Assembly: GCF_006345805.1 (NCBI RefSeq) | Contig: NW_021835895.1 | Location: 1-37,712, forward strand | Origin: Octopus sinensis | Lineage: Eukaryota | Reading direction: 5' to 3' | DNA: 37,712 nt | Shown: positions 1,327 to 36,260 of the stretch, piece after piece | Position numbering within the stretch: the first letter of the stretch is position 1 | Layout of the letters: every line of letters begins with the position of its first letter | Position numbers and translations under genes: made by a program | The notes under the pieces: model-generated | Databases searched by the model: none | Told to the model about the DNA's origin: nothing | The model's input: only the letters and a program-made list of their open reading frames with translations

Positions 1327-1824
1327 TTAGGATAGAGAAGAGAAACTGTACACAATTGTGGAAATTAGCTGCCCACTGGATGTCAACATAAAACTGAAGA
1401 TCAGTGAAAAAGAGAGCACTTATCCGGAACTATTGATAAATCTGCGGTTACTCTATCCAGATTACAAGTTTATGTTTATACCTGTAATTATTTGTGCCCT
1501 GGGATATGTAACACACTCCCTAAATACCGATCTCGAGAAATTAGTCTTCTCAAAAGAGAAAGCTAATTCGAAGACTGCTGATTCAATCTTTCACTGGGAC
1601 TGTAAAAATCTGTAAAACTTTCCAGAATTTATCATTTATATATATATGAGCATGTCTAGATATGCCTGAGAATACATACATACATAACGCATACAAATCT
1701 GCATATACATATATACATACATACAGAAATGCCCAGTTGTTGAAATTCGAATGAGGGAACCTGGGATCCAATTTAAAAACCGGTTCTTTCTCTATTAGCA
1801 AGAAATCTAGAAATAAATTGAATT
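1327..1824 (+). mobile_element. R4/Dong-type non-LTR retrotransposon 3' end (restriction-like endonuclease + 3' UTR), 5'-truncated
   Basis: DREEKLYTIVEISCPLDVNIKLKISEKESTY...FIPVIICALG fits the PD-(D/E)xK endonuclease; 3' UTR matches 5383-5480 (-); bounded by TACA repeats. Confidence 0.85.
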
Positions 1825-1832
1825 ACATACAT

Positions 1833-2900
1833 AGTTCTACACTGGATTAAGTATTTCCTGGCAAATAGAACACAATATGTTGTAGTTGATGGAGTCCACT
1901 CAAGCCCAACAAAAGTCACCAGCGGTGTCCTCCAGGGGACTGTCTTGGGTCCGCTACTCTTCATAATTTACATAAACGACCTTTCCAGTGTTGTACATTA
2001 TTGCAAAGTGAAAATACTTGCTGATGACACTAAGCTCCAGCAAATCGTCAATGAAGAAGCAGACCGAACTCAACTCCAGTCTGATATATATGCTGTGAGT
2101 CAATGGGCAGACAGAAACAAAATGCAACTGAACAAGGGAAAATTTGAGCTGATGCATTTTGGAAGAAATTTCTCACTAAAACAGTCATACAATCTTCTTT
2201 CAGGGGAACCACTCACAGCCTCTAACAATATCAGAGACCTGGGTACTCCAGAGAACAAGGTATCATCATACTACTTTTATCCTCCTTTGTATGGCCACAC
2301 CTCGAATACTGCTGCCCACTGTGGTCTCCCCATACAATACAACACATCTCGAGGATTGAATCACCCCTGAGGGCACTCACTAAACAAATTGAAGGCATGG
2401 CTGCTCTCGATTATTGGGATCGCCTTAAAGCCTTGAAACTCTACTCTCTCCAGCGTCGCCGTGAGCGGTACATCATTTGTACAATGTGGAGAAGATACCG
2501 CCAACTTTGCCCAAACGACCTGAACATTAGCTTCAAGGTTCATCCAAGACTGGGCCATACGTCCCCTGCCCAATTCAAGATCACAGCATACACGTACACT
2601 GCCACATAATTTCTTTTCCTCAACAGGCCCTGCCCTATTTAACATTGTCCCGAAAGAGATCAAAGAGGAAAAGGATCACATCAATTTTAAACGGAGTCTG
2701 GATAGATTCCTTCAAAGAATACCAGATAAGCCACCCATAATTGGGTACAACTGACCCAACAAAAACTCACTACTTGAATGGACCATAAACAAAACTTGAC
2801 TTAAACAGGATTCAAATAATCCTATCAGGTGGTGCTATTAAGATAGACATGGCCTGGACCAATCTTTGGTCGAAACATATCTAAGTTTTATCTAAGTTTT
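1833..2900 (+). mobile_element. CR1-group LINE, RT fragment plus 3' UTR, internally deleted and frameshifted
   Basis: WIKYFLANRTQYVVVDG...SGVLQGTVLGPLLFIIYINDL...ILADDTKL; LKLYSLQRRRERYIIC; ends with (atctaagtttt)x2 tail. Confidence 0.85.
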
Positions 2901-3709
2901 TACATGCATTTTTTTATGTGTTTGTGTATATAAATATATAAATACAAATATATATAAATATAAATATATAAATATTATTTAAATATCAGATAAATAATTG
3001 GTACTTAATAGTATATATATTTAAATTATATTTGAGTATAAAGTAGATTGTTTAATTTTATTGATTTTATTGATAATTATAATAATTGTAATATTTCATT
3101 TGTGTGCTGTTTTATTATAATCTGATATAATTTAATTAATCTTAGGTGTATATTAATTTAGAATATTAGGTAATAATAGTTGAACATACATACATACATA
3201 CATACATACATACATACATACATACATGCATAACAAACTTGCATAGAATTTCTCCTACCAAAATTTCTACATATGAAGCACAAGTAAATTCGAAGTGATA
3301 GGAAAACAAACGTGCCGGCACAACCAAGTACCTTTACCGAACTAAGAAACAGAAATTTACGAAGTATATTTATTGACGCAACAACCCCAAAAAGCCACAG
3401 CTACAAAAACGCCTTCATTCCAAATTTGATGAATTCTATATATTCATTAAGATTATTTAGTCACTTCTTATACTACTGGGGTTAATTAACAGTGATACGT
3501 ATATAAGCATAGCATAAAACTTGACGTTTCCTTAAACTCAGCTCATTTTCAATTTCATATATATATCCTGTTGACTTTGATATGTGCGACTAAATTAGTA
3601 TCAGTCATTAAAATGCTATAATAATTATCTCAAATATGACATTCAACTTAAATTAGTTGTATCCATATATATTCTTATGACACCGCAAGTGTCGTAGAGT
3701 ATATATGCT

Positions 3710-5995: not shown

Positions 5996-8035
5996 TGTAT
6001 GTATGTATGCATGTATTTATGTATGTATGCATATATGTGCAGATTTGTATATTTTATGTATGTATCCTTATGCATATACTGGCATATGTAGACTGATCGT
6101 ATATATTTAAGTGATAAACTGGAAAGTTTTACAGATTGTTACAGTGCCAGTGATGGATTGGATCTGTAGTCTTCGAATTTGCTTTCTCCTTTCTGGTTTT
6201 GAGAAGCCTAATGTCTCAAAATTGGTATTTAGGCATTGCATTTCATATGCCAGGGCCCCAATTATCACAGATTAAACCTGAAGTTGTAATCTGGATAGAG
6301 TAACCGCAAATTTCTCAATAGTTCAGCATAGGTGTTCTCCTTTCTCTGATCCTCAACGTTATGTTAACATCCACTGGGCGACTAATTTCCACAACCGTGC
6401 ACAGTTTCTCTACTCTATCTCAAATCCTTATATCAGTCTGCATCGGTTGTCACATTTTACTAATTTTCCTGAATCTCTATCCCTTTTGTGCCTCAGGTAC
6501 TTTGGCTAATATTTCCTGTTCCTGGATTGCAAAGTGGGAGGTAGTAATCCGGCTATTGGTCCGTGATAAAATGCTTTTATGACCGATGTTACTGTTATCA
6601 CGGAGTTTCCTACTTACATATCTATACATAGTCTTCTACTCATATAGGTATTTCCTTTCATCTGATAATACGTTGCGGTAGAGTCGTGCGACTTCTTTGG
6701 GACTGCGTTCTAGATTATCAGACAAAGAGTGTTGCTCAAGGAGCTGCCTTCCAAGTCTTATAATGTTATCAGCCTCATGTAAGCAAACTTGGTCAAGAGA
6801 CGCACTTCGACACTTGGTGGTTAAAAGATGTTGCTGAAGGGATACGATACAACATTCAAAGGCATTTTGGATCGACGTTAAGCCTCTACTGCCTTGTTTT
6901 CGTTCTAGGTGGTGGCGATCTATGTCACTATTTATGTGGAAATTATGTGTTTTTGTTAGTGTTTTTCAGGTTTTCACATCAATGGCTCGGATCTCATCAA
7001 GCGTCCAATCAAGCAGCCCAAATGTTGGTATGAGTACTGACACTGCAAATGCATTGTGGTCCACTGTTTTATTGAATGCAGAGAGTTCTCAGGTCCAAAT
7101 TTTCATTATTCAGCTATAATATAAATTAGTAACATATGTTTTGTTACAGGTGTCATTGTAAGATATATTTTCATCCACCCCTAGATACCCGTAACTTTCC
7201 TCGTCAGATACAGAGGAAACAGTCAAATTATTGATGGAGATGTCACTAGTCTGGTTTATAGGTTTCCCCCTTTTCCCAACCGTATAACAACAATTTTCCT
7301 GACCAAACTCCAACCCTACAACCTTCGATAATTGGAAGTAGGTCAAGGTTCTTTCTCATCTCATGCATATTCTTTGCGTAAAGTTTTAAGTCGTCCACAA
7401 AGAAACCGTGTGTAATTTTGGTAATTCTGCTTCCTTGTGAACCAATGAGATATCTTTCAGACTTCCATAATATGAATGACAAAGGGTTTACTGAAAGTAC
7501 AAACAACATCACAGAGAGGCTGTCCCCTTGGAATATGCCATTGCGATATCGGTGATAATACACCCACTCTTTGTGTTTAATTTCAGGCGGCCCACGATAA
7601 AGTCAGGTAAGCTATGGTTTTAACTATTCTGACTGGAAGTTTAGTAAGTTGAAGGGATTCTAGCATCCATGAGTGGGGAACGGAGTCAAACCCTTGCTTG
7701 TAGTCTGGCCACATTGAAACTAGGTTCTTCCTATGCTCTCGCACCTCTGACATCACAGTTTGATTGATTAGCACTTAGCTCGGCACTTCCCCAAACTCCC
7801 TTCTTCCCAGTTGCTTGTTATTCTGTGATAATGTTGTTGGTTTCACAATGGTCTTGGAGGAAGAGGATTAAGCATGCTATATGTATCTTATACATTACGT
7901 TCTGGCATGCAACTGGCCAGTAGTTTTTTGCCATGTAGCTGGTTCTGCATTTGGGGGATCAATTTTGTCTCCGCCAGTGCTAACCAGTGTGGTATGCTAC
8001 TGTTCCCAAAGAGAGCTTGCTCGTATAGATTGATA

Positions 8036-8249: not shown

Positions 8250-8860
8250 AAGATATGGTCGATAGAATGTTAGCTTCTTGTGCGAATATCCAAGAATCAA
8301 GTCTCTTCCAGTTTCCCTTTCTATCCGGAGTTTCAGGATCACAGTTGCAAGAGTTTCACCATCAATGTTGTATGTCTTGGATGTAACGCAGGAACGTCTT
8401 CGGATTTCTTCAAGCCACAGAGCATCTTGGTTAAATTCGTTTACTTCACTCCAGATTTTCCTTCAGAAGAAGTCTATGTCTTCTCGTGAAGGAGCTTCCG
8501 TGATGTTTACTGCTCTTCTACGCATGTCTCTGTATACTGCTGCCTGGCTGCATTTAAATATTTCGTTTATTGTTCTTCTCTTGGTTATTGGCTTCTAATG
8601 TCGGAGTTTTTCACTGGCATCTTTTAGCTCCTACCTGAAGGTAATCAGTTTCCGAGTGAGTGTCCTCTCTTTGCTCTCTCCACACATCAGTTCTATCTCC
8701 TGCTTTACTTTCTGTTGGTGGAACGCATAGTGCTTTGCTTGTTTGCATGCTATAAGCTTCATTACATGACTGATGGTCTTCGGTAAACTAGTTATCTTTT
8801 TCTCTGTCTTCAAAAGCTATCACGGTACTTTGTTGTATGTTATGTATGTATCTATGTATG

Positions 8861-8912
<52 letters not shown>

Positions 8913-8999
8913 TATTAGAGACAAAACCACTATTTTGCAAAACAAACAAGGAAAGACTTAATCAATACATAAAATTTTAATAAATAGTCAAAAAAACCG

Positions 9000-9042
9000 C
9001 CACTACAATTGTTTCTTGTCTTGATCGACAATCTTCAGGTGG
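9000..9042 (-). ncRNA. Minimal type I hammerhead ribozyme
   Basis: Minus: CCAC CTGAAGA TTGTC-gatcaa-GACAA GAAA CAATTGTA GTGG; stems I and II, palindromic stem III, GUA cleavage triplet. Confidence 0.75.
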
Positions 9043-9088
9043 ACTTCCAATAAGTCAGTTTCAAATTTGAAACTGACTTATTGGAAGT

Positions 9089-9131
9089 CCACCTGAAGAT
9101 TGTCGATCAAGACAAGAAACAAATGTAGTGG
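9089..9131 (+). ncRNA. Minimal type I hammerhead ribozyme
   Basis: CCAC CTGAAGA TTGTC-gatcaa-GACAA GAAA CAAATGTA GTGG. Confidence 0.72.
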
Positions 9132-9302
9132 CGGTTTTTTTGACTATTTATTAAAATTTTATGTATTGATTAAGTCTTTCCTTGTTTGTTTTGCAAAATA
9201 GTGGTTTTGTCTCTAATAATATTTTATAATATTTTACTATAAAATTGGATTAATCCTAAATCTGATTTTTTCCCTGTAAATTTGGATTTATTCCCTAATA
9301 TT

Positions 9303-9384
<82 letters not shown>

Positions 9385-16691: not shown

Positions 16692-17346
16692 GGATCTTTA
16701 CCTTTTGACCGACAGATTTTAAAATATATTTTTGTAACTAAATACTTTCAAACTTCGCACACTGGTAGAATGTGTCACATAAAACATCTTTTATTCTTAG
16801 TGTTGTTGAGAAAAGTTTCTATTTTCAAAGTTATTTCGTGTTAAAGTTGTCGTATATCAGTAATTTCAACCAATCAATGACGTCTATTCAGCTGAATAAA
16901 ATTACTGGTGTTGTTTGTCAACTTCCGTTGGTGTATTTTTCGTTTGTCAACTTCCGGTGGTGTATATTTCGTTTGTCAACTTCCGGTGGTGTATATTTCG
17001 TTTGTCAACTTCCGGTGGTTTATATTTCGTTTTGTCAACTTCCGGTGGTGTATATTTCATTTGTCAACTTCCGGTGGTGTATATTTCGTTTGTCAACTTC
17101 CTGTGGTGTATATTTCGTTTGTCACTGTTATTTATGACATATTTCGTCTCAGTTACGTTTGTATGAATAAATGAGTGTATCTGAAGCATGTTTACTTCAT
17201 GGCACCACGATAATCGTTGATACTTCATTTTTCATTTTTTCCGTAACTCTAACCCTAAAACCGCAACCCTAACCCTAAAACCCTAACCCAAACCCTAAAA
17301 CCCTAAAGTTAAGACACACGAACGATGTCATAAATAACAGTGACAA
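16692..17346. mobile_element. Second copy of the GGATC long-TIR element, right end truncated, with internal 29-bp minisatellite
   Basis: Colinear with 12323-12930. Confidence 0.8.
16917..17120. repeat. 29-bp tandem repeat x7 (gtcaacttccggtggtgtatatttcgttt)
   Basis: Units start at 16917, 16946, 16975, 17004, 17034, 17063, 17092. Confidence 0.95.
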
Positions 17347-22060: not shown

Positions 22061-22249
22061 AAGCATAAAGCCTTTTAAATATTCATCTACCAATAATCAA
22101 AGTAGAAAAAGATTCAGATTTGGATTATATGATAAAAATTATAATAAAAATTTTGATAGTCGTCTCCTAAACGATTACGGTATAATATGGAGGACCCGTG
22201 CAACACGAACTCGAGGAAACTGAGAAATTTATTGATATTCCTAAAATTG

Positions 22250-23342
22250 GGTTCATATTTTGGCACACAGCAAACAATTTCGGGGAGGGGATAAACCGAT
22301 TACAGCGATCCCAGTGTTCAACCAGTACTTATTTAATCGACCCCGAAATAATGAAAGGCAAAGTCAACCTCAGCGCCATTTGGATATTCCTAATATTGAT
22401 TTCAAATTTTGGCAGAAGGCCGGCAAGTTCAGGGAGAGGAGTATGTTGATTACATCGACCCCAGTGCATAACTGATACTTATTTTATCGACGCCGAAATT
22501 ATGAAAGGTAACGTGGACCTCGGTGGCATTTGAATTCAGAACGAAAAAGTTAAATGAAATGCTGCTAAGCATTTTGCCCAGCGTGATAACGATTCTTTTC
22601 TACTCTAGGCACAAGGCCCGGAATTTGGAGGCAGAGGGCCAGTCGATTAGATTGACCTGAGCACGCAACTGGTACTTAATTTATCGACCCCGAAAAGATG
22701 AAAAGTCAACCTCGGCGGAATTTGAACTCAGACGAAACACCAATTTCATTACTGCCCACAACGGGCTAAAGAAAGAGGAGACAAACAATGACAGACAAAG
22801 GGATTAAGTCGATTACATCAACCCCAGTGCGTAACTGGTACTTAATTTATCGACCCCGAAAGGATGAAAGGCAAAGTCGTCCTCGGCAGAATTTGAACTC
22901 AGAACGTAACAACAGACGAAACAGCTTTTTTATTACAGCCCACAACGGGCTAAACACAGAGGAGACAAACAAGGACAGACAAACTGATTAAGACGATTAC
23001 ATCGACCCCAGTGCGTAACTGGTACTTAATTTATCGACCCCAAAAGGATGAAAGGCAAAGTCGACCTCGGCGGAATTTGAACTCAGAACGTAATGACAGA
23101 CGAAACACCAATTTCTTTACAACCCACAACGGGCTAAACACAGAGGAGACAAACAAGGAAAGACAAACGGATTAAGTCGATTACATCGACTCCAGTGCGT
23201 AACTGGTACTTAATTTATCGACCCCGAAAGGATGAAAGGCAAAGTCGACCTCGGCGGAATTTGAACTCAGAACATAACAGCAGACGAAATACGGCTACGA
23301 ATTTCGCCCGGCGTGCTAACGTTTCTGCCAGCTCGCTGCCTG
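22250..23342 (-). mobile_element. Cluster of family A SINEs including a 184-bp module trimer
   Basis: Module marker cccacaacgggctaaa at 22755, 22939, 23123; alternative-tail module at ~22592-22740; older copies at 22250-22590. Confidence 0.88.
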
Positions 23343-25562: not shown

Positions 25563-26227
25563 TTCTTTCTTTACTACCCACAAGGGGCTAAACATAGATA
25601 GGACAAACAAGGAAAGACAAACGGATTAAGTCGATTACATCGACCCCACTGCGAAACTGGTACTTTATTTATAAACCCCGAAAGGATGAAAGCCAAAGTC
25701 GACCTCGGCGGAATTTGAACCCAGAACGTAACGGCAGACGAAATACGTATTTCTTTATTACCCACAAGGGGCTAAACATAGAGGGGACAAACAAGGACAG
25801 ACATAGGTATTAAGTCGATTACATTGACCCCACTGCGAAACTGGTACTTTATTTATAAACCCCGAAAGGATGAAAGGCAAAGCCGACCTCGGCGGAATTT
25901 GAACCCAGAACGTAACGGCAGACGAAATACGTATTTCTTTATTACTCACAAGGGGCTAAACACAGAGGGGACAAACAAGGACAGACATAGGTATTAAGTC
26001 GATAACATCGACCCCAGTGCGTAACTGGTACTTAATTTATCGACCCCGAAAGGATGAAAGGCAAAGGCGACCTCGGCGGAATTTGAACCCAGAACGTAGT
26101 GGCAGACGAAATACGGCTATGCATTTCGCCCAGCGTGCTAACGTTTCTGCCAGCTCGCCGCCTTACGCAGACGAAATACCGCTAAGCATTTCGCCCGGCG
26201 TGCTAACTTTTCTGCCAGCTCGCCGCC
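25563..26227 (-). mobile_element. Family A SINE 184-bp module trimer plus duplicated head
   Basis: Junctions gaaatacgtatttc at 25740 and 25924; extra head at ~26165-26227. Confidence 0.9.
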
Positions 26228-28148
26228 TTTTGATTGGTACTTATTGACAACAGAATTATAACAGGTAAGGTGGGATTTGAACTCAAAGATTAGAGACCCA
26301 GAATAACCACCTCAAGGAATTCTCTCCGACATTTTGATTATCTATTCTACTGTTTATCGAATCGTGTTTCACCGTCTAATATTTTCCTGTATCAACACTG
26401 CTCGATTTGTGGTAATTTGCTTCAGTCCGACGCACAATGTGGCCTATATTTCTATTTAAATAGAAACTCCTGCTAAGATTGTGTTAGCAAGATTTTATCG
26501 CCCACATAATTAAAGCAGCTCAATTTGAATTTTAAAAGCTTGATATCGATGCCGTATCATTCCTGTTTAATCATGTATAAAAGACCAGCATTCCAACCAA
26601 CTTTCCTTTTAGGAAAAGTAATTTTATACTCAAATTCATTGATGAGAATAATTACTTCAAGGACTAAATATTTACTTTCATGTGTAACGTAGGCATTGTT
26701 ATTGACTCAATGTCTGGGGGTGAAATCATTTCCTTCTATATGCAAATGAATTAGATATGCATGTGTATCTAGCACTACAGAAATAGAATCGACTGTTTTA
26801 GCTGCACTGAACTGTTGAAGAGATAAATTACTCACATTTTATTTGATTTGTGGTGTTGACAACTTCATCTGTCGGAGAGAATAATAAGATGGTGGATTCT
26901 TTGATCAGAATAGACCATTGACTGTTCGAAAACTATTGAAGCATTGGCAAACATTTGTACATGTATCAATTACAAGTTAAAGGTACTAAACATTTCCATT
27001 CGTTAAAACAGCAAAAACACAATTATTCAAAGCTATTCAAATATACTGTTTATCAGCCCTAGATAAACCCAGATCGAGAAGAAAAACCTACGATCAGAGG
27101 CATACCTATTATTCTAGCTTATTTGAACATTTAAATTTGTAAGTAATTTTTCGCATTATCACCAGCCTACACATTTTTAGCAGTGGGGTGACCGCTTATA
27201 TCGATCCGTATCCATGGCTACTACTTATTTCATCGATACAAAAAAGAAGGATTCGAATTCCAAACGTAAAAAAAAGATGTAACTAAAAACTTCAATGCTC
27301 CATGGAATTTCTTAAATTCCAGACATGCAGAAATATATCCTGAAAATATTTCAGAGGAAATTTAGACCAATACATCTAAGAACTCAGTGTGTTGAGTCAG
27401 TTGACTCATTTTACTCGCAATACACTGTACAATCTTATATCTCATTTTCGTCCACAGTAACTCATACATCCAAAGCACTTTTATACCTGTTTTTCAACTG
27501 TAGTCATTGAAACGGTTAATATATTCTAAAGCGACTACTGAAAGAGTTTCTCATTTAGTCTTGAAGCATAAACCGAAATTAGAATTTTACTGCTCGTTAT
27601 TTTCCTAACGATTTTCCCTCCTAAATAAAATGAAGTTGTGACAATTGGGGGAACAACCGTGATTTGTTGAATCGACAAAAGTTTGTTTTCCATGCGTTTC
27701 TACCTAATTTAAATTCTTTACAAAAATTAGCATTCCAAAATAGTTTAGGCTCAATAACATTAATTGAAAAACCAAATAACATTATGCAAGGCCGTCCTCC
27801 ATAATTCAATTCCAGAAACAACCATTAAAAATAATATCTCTTACAATTTTACATTTTTGTATGTGTTGGTTAATGTTACTCACGTATCAAACAGTAAGCC
27901 TATCTTTAATAGAAAGGGAAATGTGCTGGCTGATACTTTCAGAAGTAACATAAAAACTTTCTGGAATTAATATAATGAACTAAGGAAAAGCTGTAGAAAA
28001 ATGAAAAAAAAACTTCGTAACAATGATTTTTATTTTTAGTTTGAAGAATGAAGATGATAATGACATAAGATGCGGGCTCCAGAATCAGATATATACACTT
28101 GGGTGGCCGAAGCTAAAAGCCAGTTAGTAATTTTAATTGCCATACAAG

Positions 28149-34541: not shown

Positions 34542-34556
34542 GTCCATAGTAAGGTA

Positions 34557-35195
34557 TTGAATGGTCCAGTAAGAATTAAAGACCTCGTTTATGCATGCAG
34601 ATCAGAACTGAGGACGAGATATGGAAACGATACAAACATCACAATAGACTTCAAGAATAATATAACACTTCGCAAATATTTGCTTCGAATAAAACCACCA
34701 ATAGAAGAGAATGTGATTCAAGACTGTGTGTATTCCTTCCCATGCAGCTGTGGTAGGTTATACAAAGTCGAAACATGCCGCCCCTCAAAATAAGGGTAGA
34801 GGAACATTCCAAATCTCTGACACGAGGAGACATTGATAAATCGAGTTAGCTGATCATGTATGGAAAAACGGAGACCACTTCTCTCGGTGGGATGAAGTTA
34901 AAATAATAGACAGAGAATACCGCTGGAAAATACGAAAACTAAAAGAAGCAGCACATATGCTAGGACACAACAACCTCCTTAGCAGACTGAATGCAGATAT
35001 GAGCAGCATATTGGAACCGGTATTAAGGAGGGATAGGAAAATATTAGATTTATAAGCCCTAAAAGTTCACTCCATAATTGCCCATGGGCAAATTTTCCCG
35101 CAGGCACAAGAGGAATGGTGTCGCTTTCCGCCGACTGGGTTTTTCCTGTGGCGTCAGTTTTGTCGGGAAAAAAGTAAAGTCTGAGACGTGCCTCC
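34557..35195 (+). mobile_element. Penelope-like element 3' fragment (GIY-YIG endonuclease)
   Basis: TLRKYL...CVYSFPCSCGRLYKVETCRP/KIRVEEH...ADHVW...WDEVKIIDRE...RKLKEA with frameshifts; followed by (TA)n. Confidence 0.8.
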
Positions 35196-35490: not shown

Positions 35491-36260
35491 TTATATTGGA
35501 GATATCGATTTTATCATGAGTAAATAATCTTATATTGGAATGAGTAATTTTATACAGAAACAATTGATTCCGTATAGGAGTGATTGATTGTATATTGGAA
35601 TGATTGTTTATATTGGAATGAGTAATATTATAATTGATTATATAATGGAAATATTGATTTCATATTGACGTGATTGATTTCATATTGGAGTCATTGATTT
35701 CATATTGAATTGATTAATTTCACATTAGGGGTACTGGTTTTATATCGGGGTAACTGATTTTATAATGGGGTGATTGATTCCATACTGGAGCGATAGAGTT
35801 TGAGTGATAGTTGTGTGATTGATTGTATGTTCGAATTATCGATTTTACATCGGAGTGATTTGTTCAAAATTGCGGTGTTTATTTACATACTGGAAACAAT
35901 GCCTTATACTGGGGAGATTGATTTCATATTAGAATGATTGATTTTATAATGGGTCTGTTGGTTTATACTGGAGATTTAGATTTTATATTGAAGTGATTGG
36001 TTTTACATTGGGGTGACTAGTCTGATGTTCGACTGATTGATTTCATACTGGAGTGATCAGTTTACACGGTGATGATACATTTCTAATGGAGTAAATAATT
36101 TATACTTGAATAAGCAATTTCATACTGGAGTTTCTAATTTTCTACTTGTGTGAATAATTTTATGCTGGAGTACTGAATTTTGAATTTGAGTAATTAATTT
36201 GATACTTGATTGATTAGTTTATATTGGAGCGATTAATTTTATTATGAAATGATTTAATTT
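35491..36260. repeat. Degenerate 20-bp minisatellite (consensus ~ttatattggagtgattgatt)
   Basis: Repeated tt[a/c]ata[t/c]tgga...tgatt units at ~20-bp period. Confidence 0.8.

What the first reader, a model, noticed from the sequence alone, without database searches (positions are those of the whole stretch)
8903..9305. 326-bp spacerless palindrome carrying two back-to-back hammerhead ribozymes
Seen: 163-bp arms centred at 9065/9066 with a single mismatch (9008/9123). Each arm holds CCAC-CUGAAGA-stem II-GAAA-C...GUA-GUGG, so a transcript from either strand would contain a hammerhead. The only mismatch falls in stem III: the minus copy keeps the palindrome ACAATTGT and the plus copy has ACAAATGT. 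Known: Penelope-like pLTRs carry minimal type I hammerheads with palindromic stem III that act as dimers, and they often insert as inverted pLTR plus extension. Inference: a young non-autonomous Penelope/retrozyme-like insertion in (TA)n that could yield long dsRNA (an ADAR or small-RNA substrate) or self-cleaved RNA, with the fold-back competing with ribozyme folding.
Basis: partly seen in the sequence, partly recalled or inferred. Interest (0 to 1): 0.75.

Follow-up and report, generated by a model that had tools for sequence, protein, structure and literature searches.

The report
Spliced Penelope leader inserted as palindrome
This palindrome is two head-to-head DNA copies of the spliced front end of a Penelope-type jumping gene, one of hundreds in this genome, while every protein-coding copy checked still has the intron, a split that likely explains the old puzzle of how these elements keep introns although they move through RNA.

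Summary
The palindrome and both hammerhead motifs are real. It is one insertion of a young Hydra-clade Penelope-like element (PLE) in (TA)n; the same spacerless centre occurs at 33 places. New here: both arms are SPLICED. Long copies carry a 1.8-kb GT-AG intron at 9079/9080. The genome holds 564 exact spliced junctions; they stop at an initiator-like +1, often with an extra G (59 of 89). Of 91 leaders joined to the ORF, 48 keep the intron and 0 are spliced. In 49 of 50 inverted pairs one arm ends at site A and the other 73 nt later at site B; arms share alleles in 37 of 37. Best reading: both ends of a cut (TA)n likely prime reverse transcription at two sites of one capped, spliced leader, and the cDNAs join at AATT. 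The stem III mismatch is private to this copy; no RNA evidence was obtained. The scan saw mirror-image PLE stubs before on other DNA; I found no report of cis-spliced leader copies.

The parts
8841..8902 (.). Left target flank: (TATG)n then (TA)n; the boundary with the arm is blurred by shared TATA
   Evidence: 119 of 124 arm ends in 68 loci run into TA-rich sequence
8903..9067 (-). Arm A: inverted copy of the spliced leader, nt +8 to about +172-176 (+1 = inferred start site), ending at site A
9000..9042 (-). Minimal type I hammerhead motif with self-complementary stem III; predicted cut after 9004
   Evidence: stem III self-duplex -6.4 kcal/mol
9051..9052 (-). Exon 1/exon 2 splice junction in arm A (intron absent)
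9064..9067 (.). Centre: self-complementary AATT (+8 to +11 of both arms), the inferred microhomology that joins the two cDNAs
   Evidence: sequence; same centre at 33 places; other junction types
9064..9305 (+). Arm B: forward copy of the spliced leader, +8 to about +249, ending at site B
9079..9080 (+). Exon 1/exon 2 splice junction in arm B; long copies carry a 1.77-1.83 kb GT-AG intron here
   Evidence: 564 spliced, 248 donor and at least 444 acceptor exact matches
9089..9131 (+). Minimal type I hammerhead motif; private A at 9123 weakens the stem III dimer helix; predicted cut after 9127
   Evidence: self-duplex -0.7 kcal/mol against -6.4
9229..9305 (+). Tail between sites A and B (about 73-77 nt); in the parent it runs on into the ORF, whose ATG lies 64 nt past the base matching window 9300
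9306..9378 (.). Right target flank, (TA)n

Best explanation
The palindrome is two head-to-head copies of the spliced 5' leader of a Hydra-clade Penelope-like retrotransposon, likely made when both ends of a cut in a (TA)n run primed reverse transcription at two sites 73 nt apart on one capped leader RNA. Shown: arm identity, loss of the intron, the parent ORF, the A+B end rule, shared alleles, 5' ends at one point. Inferred steps: (1) the element's mRNA starts at the initiator-like +1, is capped and spliced; (2) the RT/GIY-YIG protein, probably a dimer, cuts both strands of (TA)n; (3) one DNA end primes at site A, the other at site B, both upstream of the ORF, and the B polymerase displaces the A cDNA; (4) both run to the cap, sometimes copying it as an extra G; (5) the two cDNA 3' ends anneal by microhomology, here AATT, and are filled in. 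Because both priming sites lie upstream of the ORF, spliced mRNA would yield only leader stubs, and ORF-bearing copies would come only from unspliced read-through RNA, so the intron persists. The hammerheads ride along uncleaved; in a transcript across this locus the arm-to-arm hairpin is predicted to mask them.
For: Parent: the tail runs into an RT + GIY-YIG ORF with the Hydra motifs. Splicing: exon 1|GTAAGT...TTTTAG|exon 2 in long copies, exact junction in the window; 564 spliced junctions. Two template classes: on contigs C1-C2, 40 of 42 unspliced donors but 4 of 65 spliced junctions continue upstream of +1 (hand count; Fisher; sites not independent). ORF-linked leaders: 48 with intron, 0 spliced, 41 cut short of the junction, 2 unclear, of 91. 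Cap: G at -1 in 59 of 89 listed non-extended spliced copies where the element has C; 24 of 54 after dropping one recurrent junction (hand count; test); precedent in LINE-1 and SVA (PMC4859970). End rule: 49 of 50 pairs A+B, 0 AA, 0 BB, 1 other; 9 of 11 long pairs A+B. Same template: +65 allele concordant in 37 of 37 pairs (22 A/A, 15 G/G); 31 of 31 pairs spanning the junction spliced in both arms. Two cDNAs: arm A reaches at least 10 nt further 5' than arm B in 12 of 50 pairs, the reverse in 8. In vitro precedent: an anole PLE cuts and extends both strands from two internal sites, with hammerhead cleavage dispensable (PMC11167929).
Against: No RNA data: start site, cap and splicing are read from genomic copies only. 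Two loci from the biased first set are discordant at +65 (L011/L012; L003 by eye), so some pairs have two templates or later change. Two long pairs are A+A (L051/L052, L059); their flanks are also mirror-duplicated, so they look like secondary or assembly fold-backs, which shows such artefacts may exist in this assembly. 35 of the 59 G cases are one junction where the G is also templated by the partner arm. Arm-to-arm gene conversion or assembly polishing could raise allele concordance. The simple model predicts some full-length copies ending in a spliced, capped leader; 0 of 48 were seen, so long templates must be wholly unspliced for a reason not shown. No uninterrupted full ORF was seen in the 20 stretches. 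Pfam gives no hit on the ORF.
Confidence: 0.65

Rival explanations
1. Same double priming, but on two sister leader RNAs held in one particle, perhaps by the hammerhead's self-complementary stem III.
For: The common stem III variant keeps self-pairing through G-U (-5.8 against -6.4 kcal/mol). Two loci are discordant at +65. Sister RNAs of one source locus would share alleles.
Against: No spliced/unspliced mixed pair in 31 short and 9 long A+B pairs, although both RNA forms coexist for D. virilis Penelope (PMC2377424). The strict A+B rule needs an extra asymmetry. Two pairs carry a core GAAA change in both arms.
Confidence: 0.18
2. Fold-back or self-priming: one cDNA (or an antisense template, as proposed in PMC3846280) snaps back and is copied into the mirror arm; uneven centres arise by later deletion.
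For: Explains identical alleles and splice state at once. The first 15 nt of the leader can form a small hairpin, and junctions compatible with snap-back recur (3 of 29 in the ordered set).
Against: In 12 of 50 pairs the tail-less arm A holds sequence absent from arm B, twice ending exactly at +1 (L073, L105), which a fold-back of either cDNA cannot make. Exact removal of a sense-strand GT-AG intron excludes an antisense template for these copies.
Confidence: 0.1
3. A selected RNA device or retrozyme: the palindrome is copied as a unit and yields self-cleaved RNA or dsRNA with a role.
For: Intact motifs on both strands; the same centre at 33 places; predicted full hairpin -269 kcal/mol.
Against: Centres vary widely (15 types among 29 junctions), so each insertion rebuilds its junction. 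Copies span the uncleaved site; 5' ends at the cut site are barely above a control position (about 11 of 17 against 7 of 52 matches; p = 0.24). Stem I probability is at most 0.07 in every monomer fold. Not head-to-tail tandem.
Confidence: 0.04
4. Assembly artefact: a fold-back read chimera on a small unplaced contig.
For: The window is a whole 37.7-kb contig; two loci elsewhere look like fold-back duplications; no contig spans the stretch.
Against: The arms are unequal (A against B), the flanks differ, and 30 of the 33 identical centres lie on the large contigs.
Confidence: 0.02

Closest known systems
Hydra clade of endonuclease-bearing PLEs (Craig et al. 2021, PMC8557442; section 11 read, supplement passages seen)
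   Same: C-terminal GIY-YIG, DKT, RWK-type and CxCx5C motifs, no CCHH, CxxC and CxH, hammerhead in the pLTR, (TA)n targets.
   Different: Unit about 6.3 kb against under 3 kb, with a 1.8-kb leader intron and an Asn-rich stretch; not the Hydra-1_Obim family, whose listed hammerhead differs. Spliced leader copies are not described in the passages read.
PLE insertion unit with adjacent inverted 5'-truncated pLTR and one-sided tail (PMC8557442 fig. 2; Adineta Pen2a, PMC3846280; passages seen)
   Same: Head-to-head arms, tail on one side only, microhomology junction, initiator-like TCACT.
   Different: No ORF; tail about 73-77 nt against 30-40; both arms lack the intron and stop at +1. The published self-priming on an antisense template does not fit these copies.
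Anole Poseidon PLE in vitro (Frangieh et al. 2024, PMC11167929; parts 1-2 of 4 read)
   Same: Two internal RT start sites that bound the tail; both strands cut and extended; uncleaved RNA is the template.
   Different: There the sites lie inside the ORF and are said not to match the target; here they lie upstream of the ATG in TA-rich runs like the target. The parts read do not show how the two products are joined.
Drosophila virilis Penelope leader intron (PMC2377424, PMC4209133)
   Same: Start site, short first exon, intron in the pLTR, intron end next to hammerhead helix I.
   Different: 75-bp intron; retention was ascribed to selection against intronless copies; genomic spliced copies are not reported in the passages read.
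LINE-1 twin priming (PMC4859970, passage seen; mechanism details recalled)
   Same: Two target ends prime on one RNA and the cDNAs join by microhomology.
   Different: LINE-1 gives an inversion of largely non-overlapping parts at variable sites; here two fixed sites give overlapping mirror copies.
Non-LTR retrozymes (bioRxiv 10.64898/2026.07.22.740005, part 1 of 5 read)
   Same: Non-coding, type I hammerhead, derived from PLE pLTRs.
   Different: Retrozymes are head-to-tail tandem units; this is a head-to-head pair not bounded by the cleavage site.

Membership tests
Endonuclease-bearing PLE | Single ORF with RT and C-terminal GIY-YIG next to the pLTR | tested here: met
   ORF follows the tail in L055/L056 and L064, YRDD and VY..YIG motifs, about 2.5 kb; broken by frameshifts in all copies seen; no Pfam hit; 170 homologs at 29-44% identity in the 120 listed
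Endonuclease-bearing PLE | Partial tandem or inverted pLTRs with one-sided tail | tested here: met
   49 of 50 pairs A+B; direct repeats 6.26-6.29 kb apart
Endonuclease-bearing PLE | Hammerhead motif in the pLTR | tested here: met
   no Rfam match
Endonuclease-bearing PLE | Intron retained after retrotransposition | tested here: not met
   Not met by this insertion and the 564 spliced junctions; met by 48 of 48 ORF-linked leaders that reach the junction
Hydra clade | DKT and RWK motifs | tested here: met
   SDKT present; KWK in place of RWK, homologs RWK/RWR
Hydra clade | CxCx5C linker, no CCHH, CxxC and CxH beside conserved E and N | tested here: met
   Invariant C34, C36, C42, C140, C143, E146, N160, C169, H171 in alignment A1
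Hydra clade | Insertion in (TA)n | tested here: met
   119 of 124 arm ends
Hydra clade | Element under 3 kb | tested here: not met
   Unit about 6.3 kb with intron and long 3' region; the ORF itself is of the usual size
Hydra clade | Placement in an RT tree with reference PLEs | not tested
Minimal type I hammerhead (dimer type) | Core boxes, short stem I, self-complementary stem III | tested here: met
   Met for the minus arm; the plus arm has a central mismatch
Minimal type I hammerhead (dimer type) | Self-cleavage as dimer or with protein | not testable with these tools
   Needs an in vitro assay
Non-LTR retrozyme | Head-to-tail tandem units each with a hammerhead | tested here: not met
   Head-to-head pair; no such tandem repeat at the locus
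Processed retrocopy | Exact loss of a GT-AG intron and 5' end at the start site with extra G | tested here: met
   start site inferred, not mapped; this copy itself begins at +8

The most novel reading that the evidence does not exclude
This family records the Penelope-like transposition cycle in two fossil classes: spliced, capped mRNA is primed twice upstream of its ORF and leaves only leader palindromes, while coding copies come only from unspliced read-through RNA. Inverted pLTRs, the one-sided tail and intron retention are then one mechanism, general to endonuclease-bearing PLEs, with no need for an antisense template or for selection on the intron.
Probability: 0.5. Interest if true: 0.75.

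Novelty: new variant of a known kind. Interest (0 to 1): 0.56.

Why it matters
The locus itself is a probable dead-end stub. The family matters because PMC8557442 calls the steps that form inverted pLTRs and tails undefined and the meaning of intron retention unknown, and PMC3846280 left open antisense self-priming against an unspliced sense template. Here hundreds of young copies separate these options and give exact sites (+1, the junction, A, B) for a short in vitro test. It also warns that such hairpins will be mis-called as miRNA precursors or ribozyme devices.

Tried and rejected
Rfam: no hammerhead family; miRNA hits are hairpin artefacts below gathering score. Pfam: nothing on the parent ORF pieces or on three homologs. 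My first guess of Neptune (recalled motif) was dropped after reading the Hydra definition. Sequencing runs: no RNA holder listed, no evidence either way; splicing in RNA was not tested. Contigs laid on the palindrome are short and fit both arms, so they decide neither base 9123 nor the centre. Neighbouring contig C12365 is a separate truncated insertion, not a second copy of this locus. Hammerhead-cleaved RNA as main template: not supported (one control position only). A splice-dependent ribozyme switch: a 5-bp hairpin forms only across the spliced junction (probability about 0.4-0.5 in short folds) but stem I stays at 0.07 or less in both forms. Covariation was not tried; copies are 95-99% alike. 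Literature searches for intronless or spliced genomic PLE copies and for twin priming in PLEs found no such report; subscription papers, among them Arkhipova 2003 and 2006 and Lünse 2017 (recalled, not seen), are outside the library, and the bioRxiv supplement was not seen.

Full report
Observation. The palindrome is as described: arms 8903-9065 and 9066-9228, no spacer, one mismatch at 9008/9123, between (TA)n runs, with an extension to about 9305. Each arm holds a minimal type I hammerhead motif; my descriptor found only these two in the window and none in 20000 arm shuffles or 30 window shuffles. Rfam has no hammerhead match. The window is a whole small contig of a 2.7-Gb genome, G000; the organism was not determined.

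A young family. A search with 9066-9300 gave 895 candidates, of which 40 were scored, all about 99% alike. Most showed the same build: inverted arm, variable centre, forward arm, tail, (TA)n. The A at 9123 is private: 0 of 96 stem III readings in 68 other loci have it. It lowers the predicted stem III self-duplex from -6.4 to -0.7 kcal/mol, whereas the common variant keeps -5.8 through G-U pairs.

The parent. In longer copies the tail runs on into an ORF whose ATG lies 64 nt past the base matching window 9300. [quoted passage not shown] These are the Hydra-clade marks of PMC8557442 (section 11), and the supplement alignment agrees by eye. No tree was built. Direct repeats lie 6.26-6.29 kb apart. 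All ORF copies in the 20 stretches were interrupted; some breaks may be assembly errors.

The arms are spliced. Long copies read exon 1, GTAAGT, a 1.77-1.83 kb intron, TTTTAG, exon 2 (four copies measured; longer with internal repeats). The window has exon 1 joined exactly to exon 2 at 9079/9080 and 9052/9051. Exact matches genome-wide: 564 spliced junctions, 248 donors, 444 acceptors; the last is a lower bound, since an acceptor variant is common.

Two template classes. On C1-C2, where the lists are complete, 40 of 42 donors but only 4 of 65 spliced junctions (one duplicated locus) continue upstream of an initiator-like TCACTTC (hand count; the initiator consensus is recalled, and PMC3846280 notes TCACT in a rotifer pLTR). 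Among the first 100 of 118 matches, 11 are upstream-extended; of the other 89, 59 have G before +1 where the element has C (7 C, 13 A, 10 T). Thirty-five of these are one junction in which the partner arm also offers the G; without them 24 of 54 remain G (p = 4e-5 against 0.2). An untemplated G is the accepted mark of a copied cap in LINE-1 and SVA (PMC4859970, passages). All 91 exact matches to the tail-to-ORF link were examined: 48 keep the intron, 0 are spliced, 41 stop short of the junction, 2 are unclear.

How the mirror is built. I analysed 68 of the 74 distinct loci behind the first 100 of the 564 spliced matches (plus eight held loci). All were chosen by having one spliced arm. Three low-identity extra hits and three tandem duplicate pairs were dropped. 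Of 50 inverted pairs, 49 have one arm ending at site A (about +172-176) and one at site B (about +249); none is A+A or B+B; one has a shortened arm; 18 further arms are solo (13 A, 5 B). At the +65 variant all 37 informative pairs agree (22 A/A, 15 G/G; chance under independent templates 3e-11); three rarer variants agree too, and +86 shows 3 discordant pairs beside a T run. All 31 pairs that span the junction twice are spliced twice (one spurious pair removed), and no intron end occurs in the 68 loci. Against this, L011/L012 and L003 (by eye) are discordant at +65. Among long intron-bearing pairs 9 are A+B and 2 are A+A, the latter with mirror-duplicated flanks. Arm A reaches at least 10 nt further 5' than arm B in 12 pairs and the reverse in 8. 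Centres fall into 15 types among 29 junctions; the window's centre, an overlap on AATT, occurs at 33 places.

Mechanism. These counts fit two cDNAs primed from opposite ends of one cut, at two fixed sites on one leader, and joined at their 3' ends. This is inferred. It matches the anole PLE, which cuts and extends both strands from two internal sites and needs no hammerhead cleavage (PMC11167929, parts 1-2 of 4). A fold-back cannot give an arm A longer than arm B without later deletion, and loss of a sense-strand intron excludes the antisense template proposed in PMC3846280 (passages) for these copies. Since both sites lie upstream of the ATG, spliced mRNA can leave only leader stubs, and coding copies need unspliced read-through RNA. 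Unexplained: why no long copy ends in a spliced leader.

The ribozymes. Copies span the uncleaved site. About 11 of 17 matches start at the cut position against about 7 of 52 at one control position (p = 0.24). Two pairs carry a core change in both arms. Monomer folds give stem I at most 0.07, and the full hairpin is predicted at -269 kcal/mol. Activity and any dsRNA product are untested; no RNA run could be examined.

Novelty. Inverted pLTR plus one-sided tail is known (PMC8557442, PMC3846280), opposite-strand hammerhead pairs 100-700 bp apart are noted in PMC4209133 (parts 1-2 of 4), and a leader intron is known from D. virilis, where retention was ascribed to selection (PMC2377424, passages). 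Six searches found no report of cis-spliced, start-site-terminated genomic pLTR copies or of the spliced/unspliced split; subscription papers were not searchable. Earlier notes of this scan describe mirror stubs and a copied-twice reading in other genomes, and one trans-spliced case; I had stated my reading before seeing them. Verdict: an ordinary locus in an unusually informative family; new variant of a known kind; interest 0.56.

Noticed in passing
L137-L139, L143, L145-L148, L153-L159, L189, L197, L204: Head-to-tail arrays of 2-4 units of about 240-360 bp, each running from mid-leader through the tail into the first 60-100 nt of the ORF, mostly without the hammerhead; they look like repeated template jumps or small circular templates.
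   Followed up: partly
L051/L052 and L059: Large inverted duplications that include non-element flanks; secondary rearrangement or assembly fold-back.
   Followed up: partly
L032 and L161: Rare spliced copies that extend upstream of +1; L161 joins the ORF start to the region just upstream of +1 by an internal deletion.
   Followed up: partly
L002, L071, L090: Pairs whose centre holds 40-600 nt of sequence from outside the leader, possibly filler captured during joining.
   Followed up: no
L064:9351-9998, L065:506-3131: ORFs inside one long copy that recall Polinton/Maverick-type proteins (recalled resemblance; no Pfam hit).
   Followed up: partly
window 34542-34793: Short frame with a motif recalling the GIY-YIG start of another PLE clade; no Pfam hit and no match to the Hydra homologs.
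   Followed up: partly
window 1822-2609 (+) and 6636-7602 (-): Degenerate LINE-type reverse transcriptase fragments, RVT_1 E = 6e-10 and 4e-4.
   Followed up: partly
window 22234-22508, 22729-23289, 25566-26229 and dispersed copies: SINE-like repeat with 150-bp and 184-bp tandem units.
   Followed up: no
window 16913-17124, 35525-36239: 29-bp and 20-bp minisatellites.
   Followed up: no
L054:about 3330-3560: Asn-rich in-frame stretch between RT and endonuclease, as reported for rotifer PLEs in PMC3846280.
   Followed up: no
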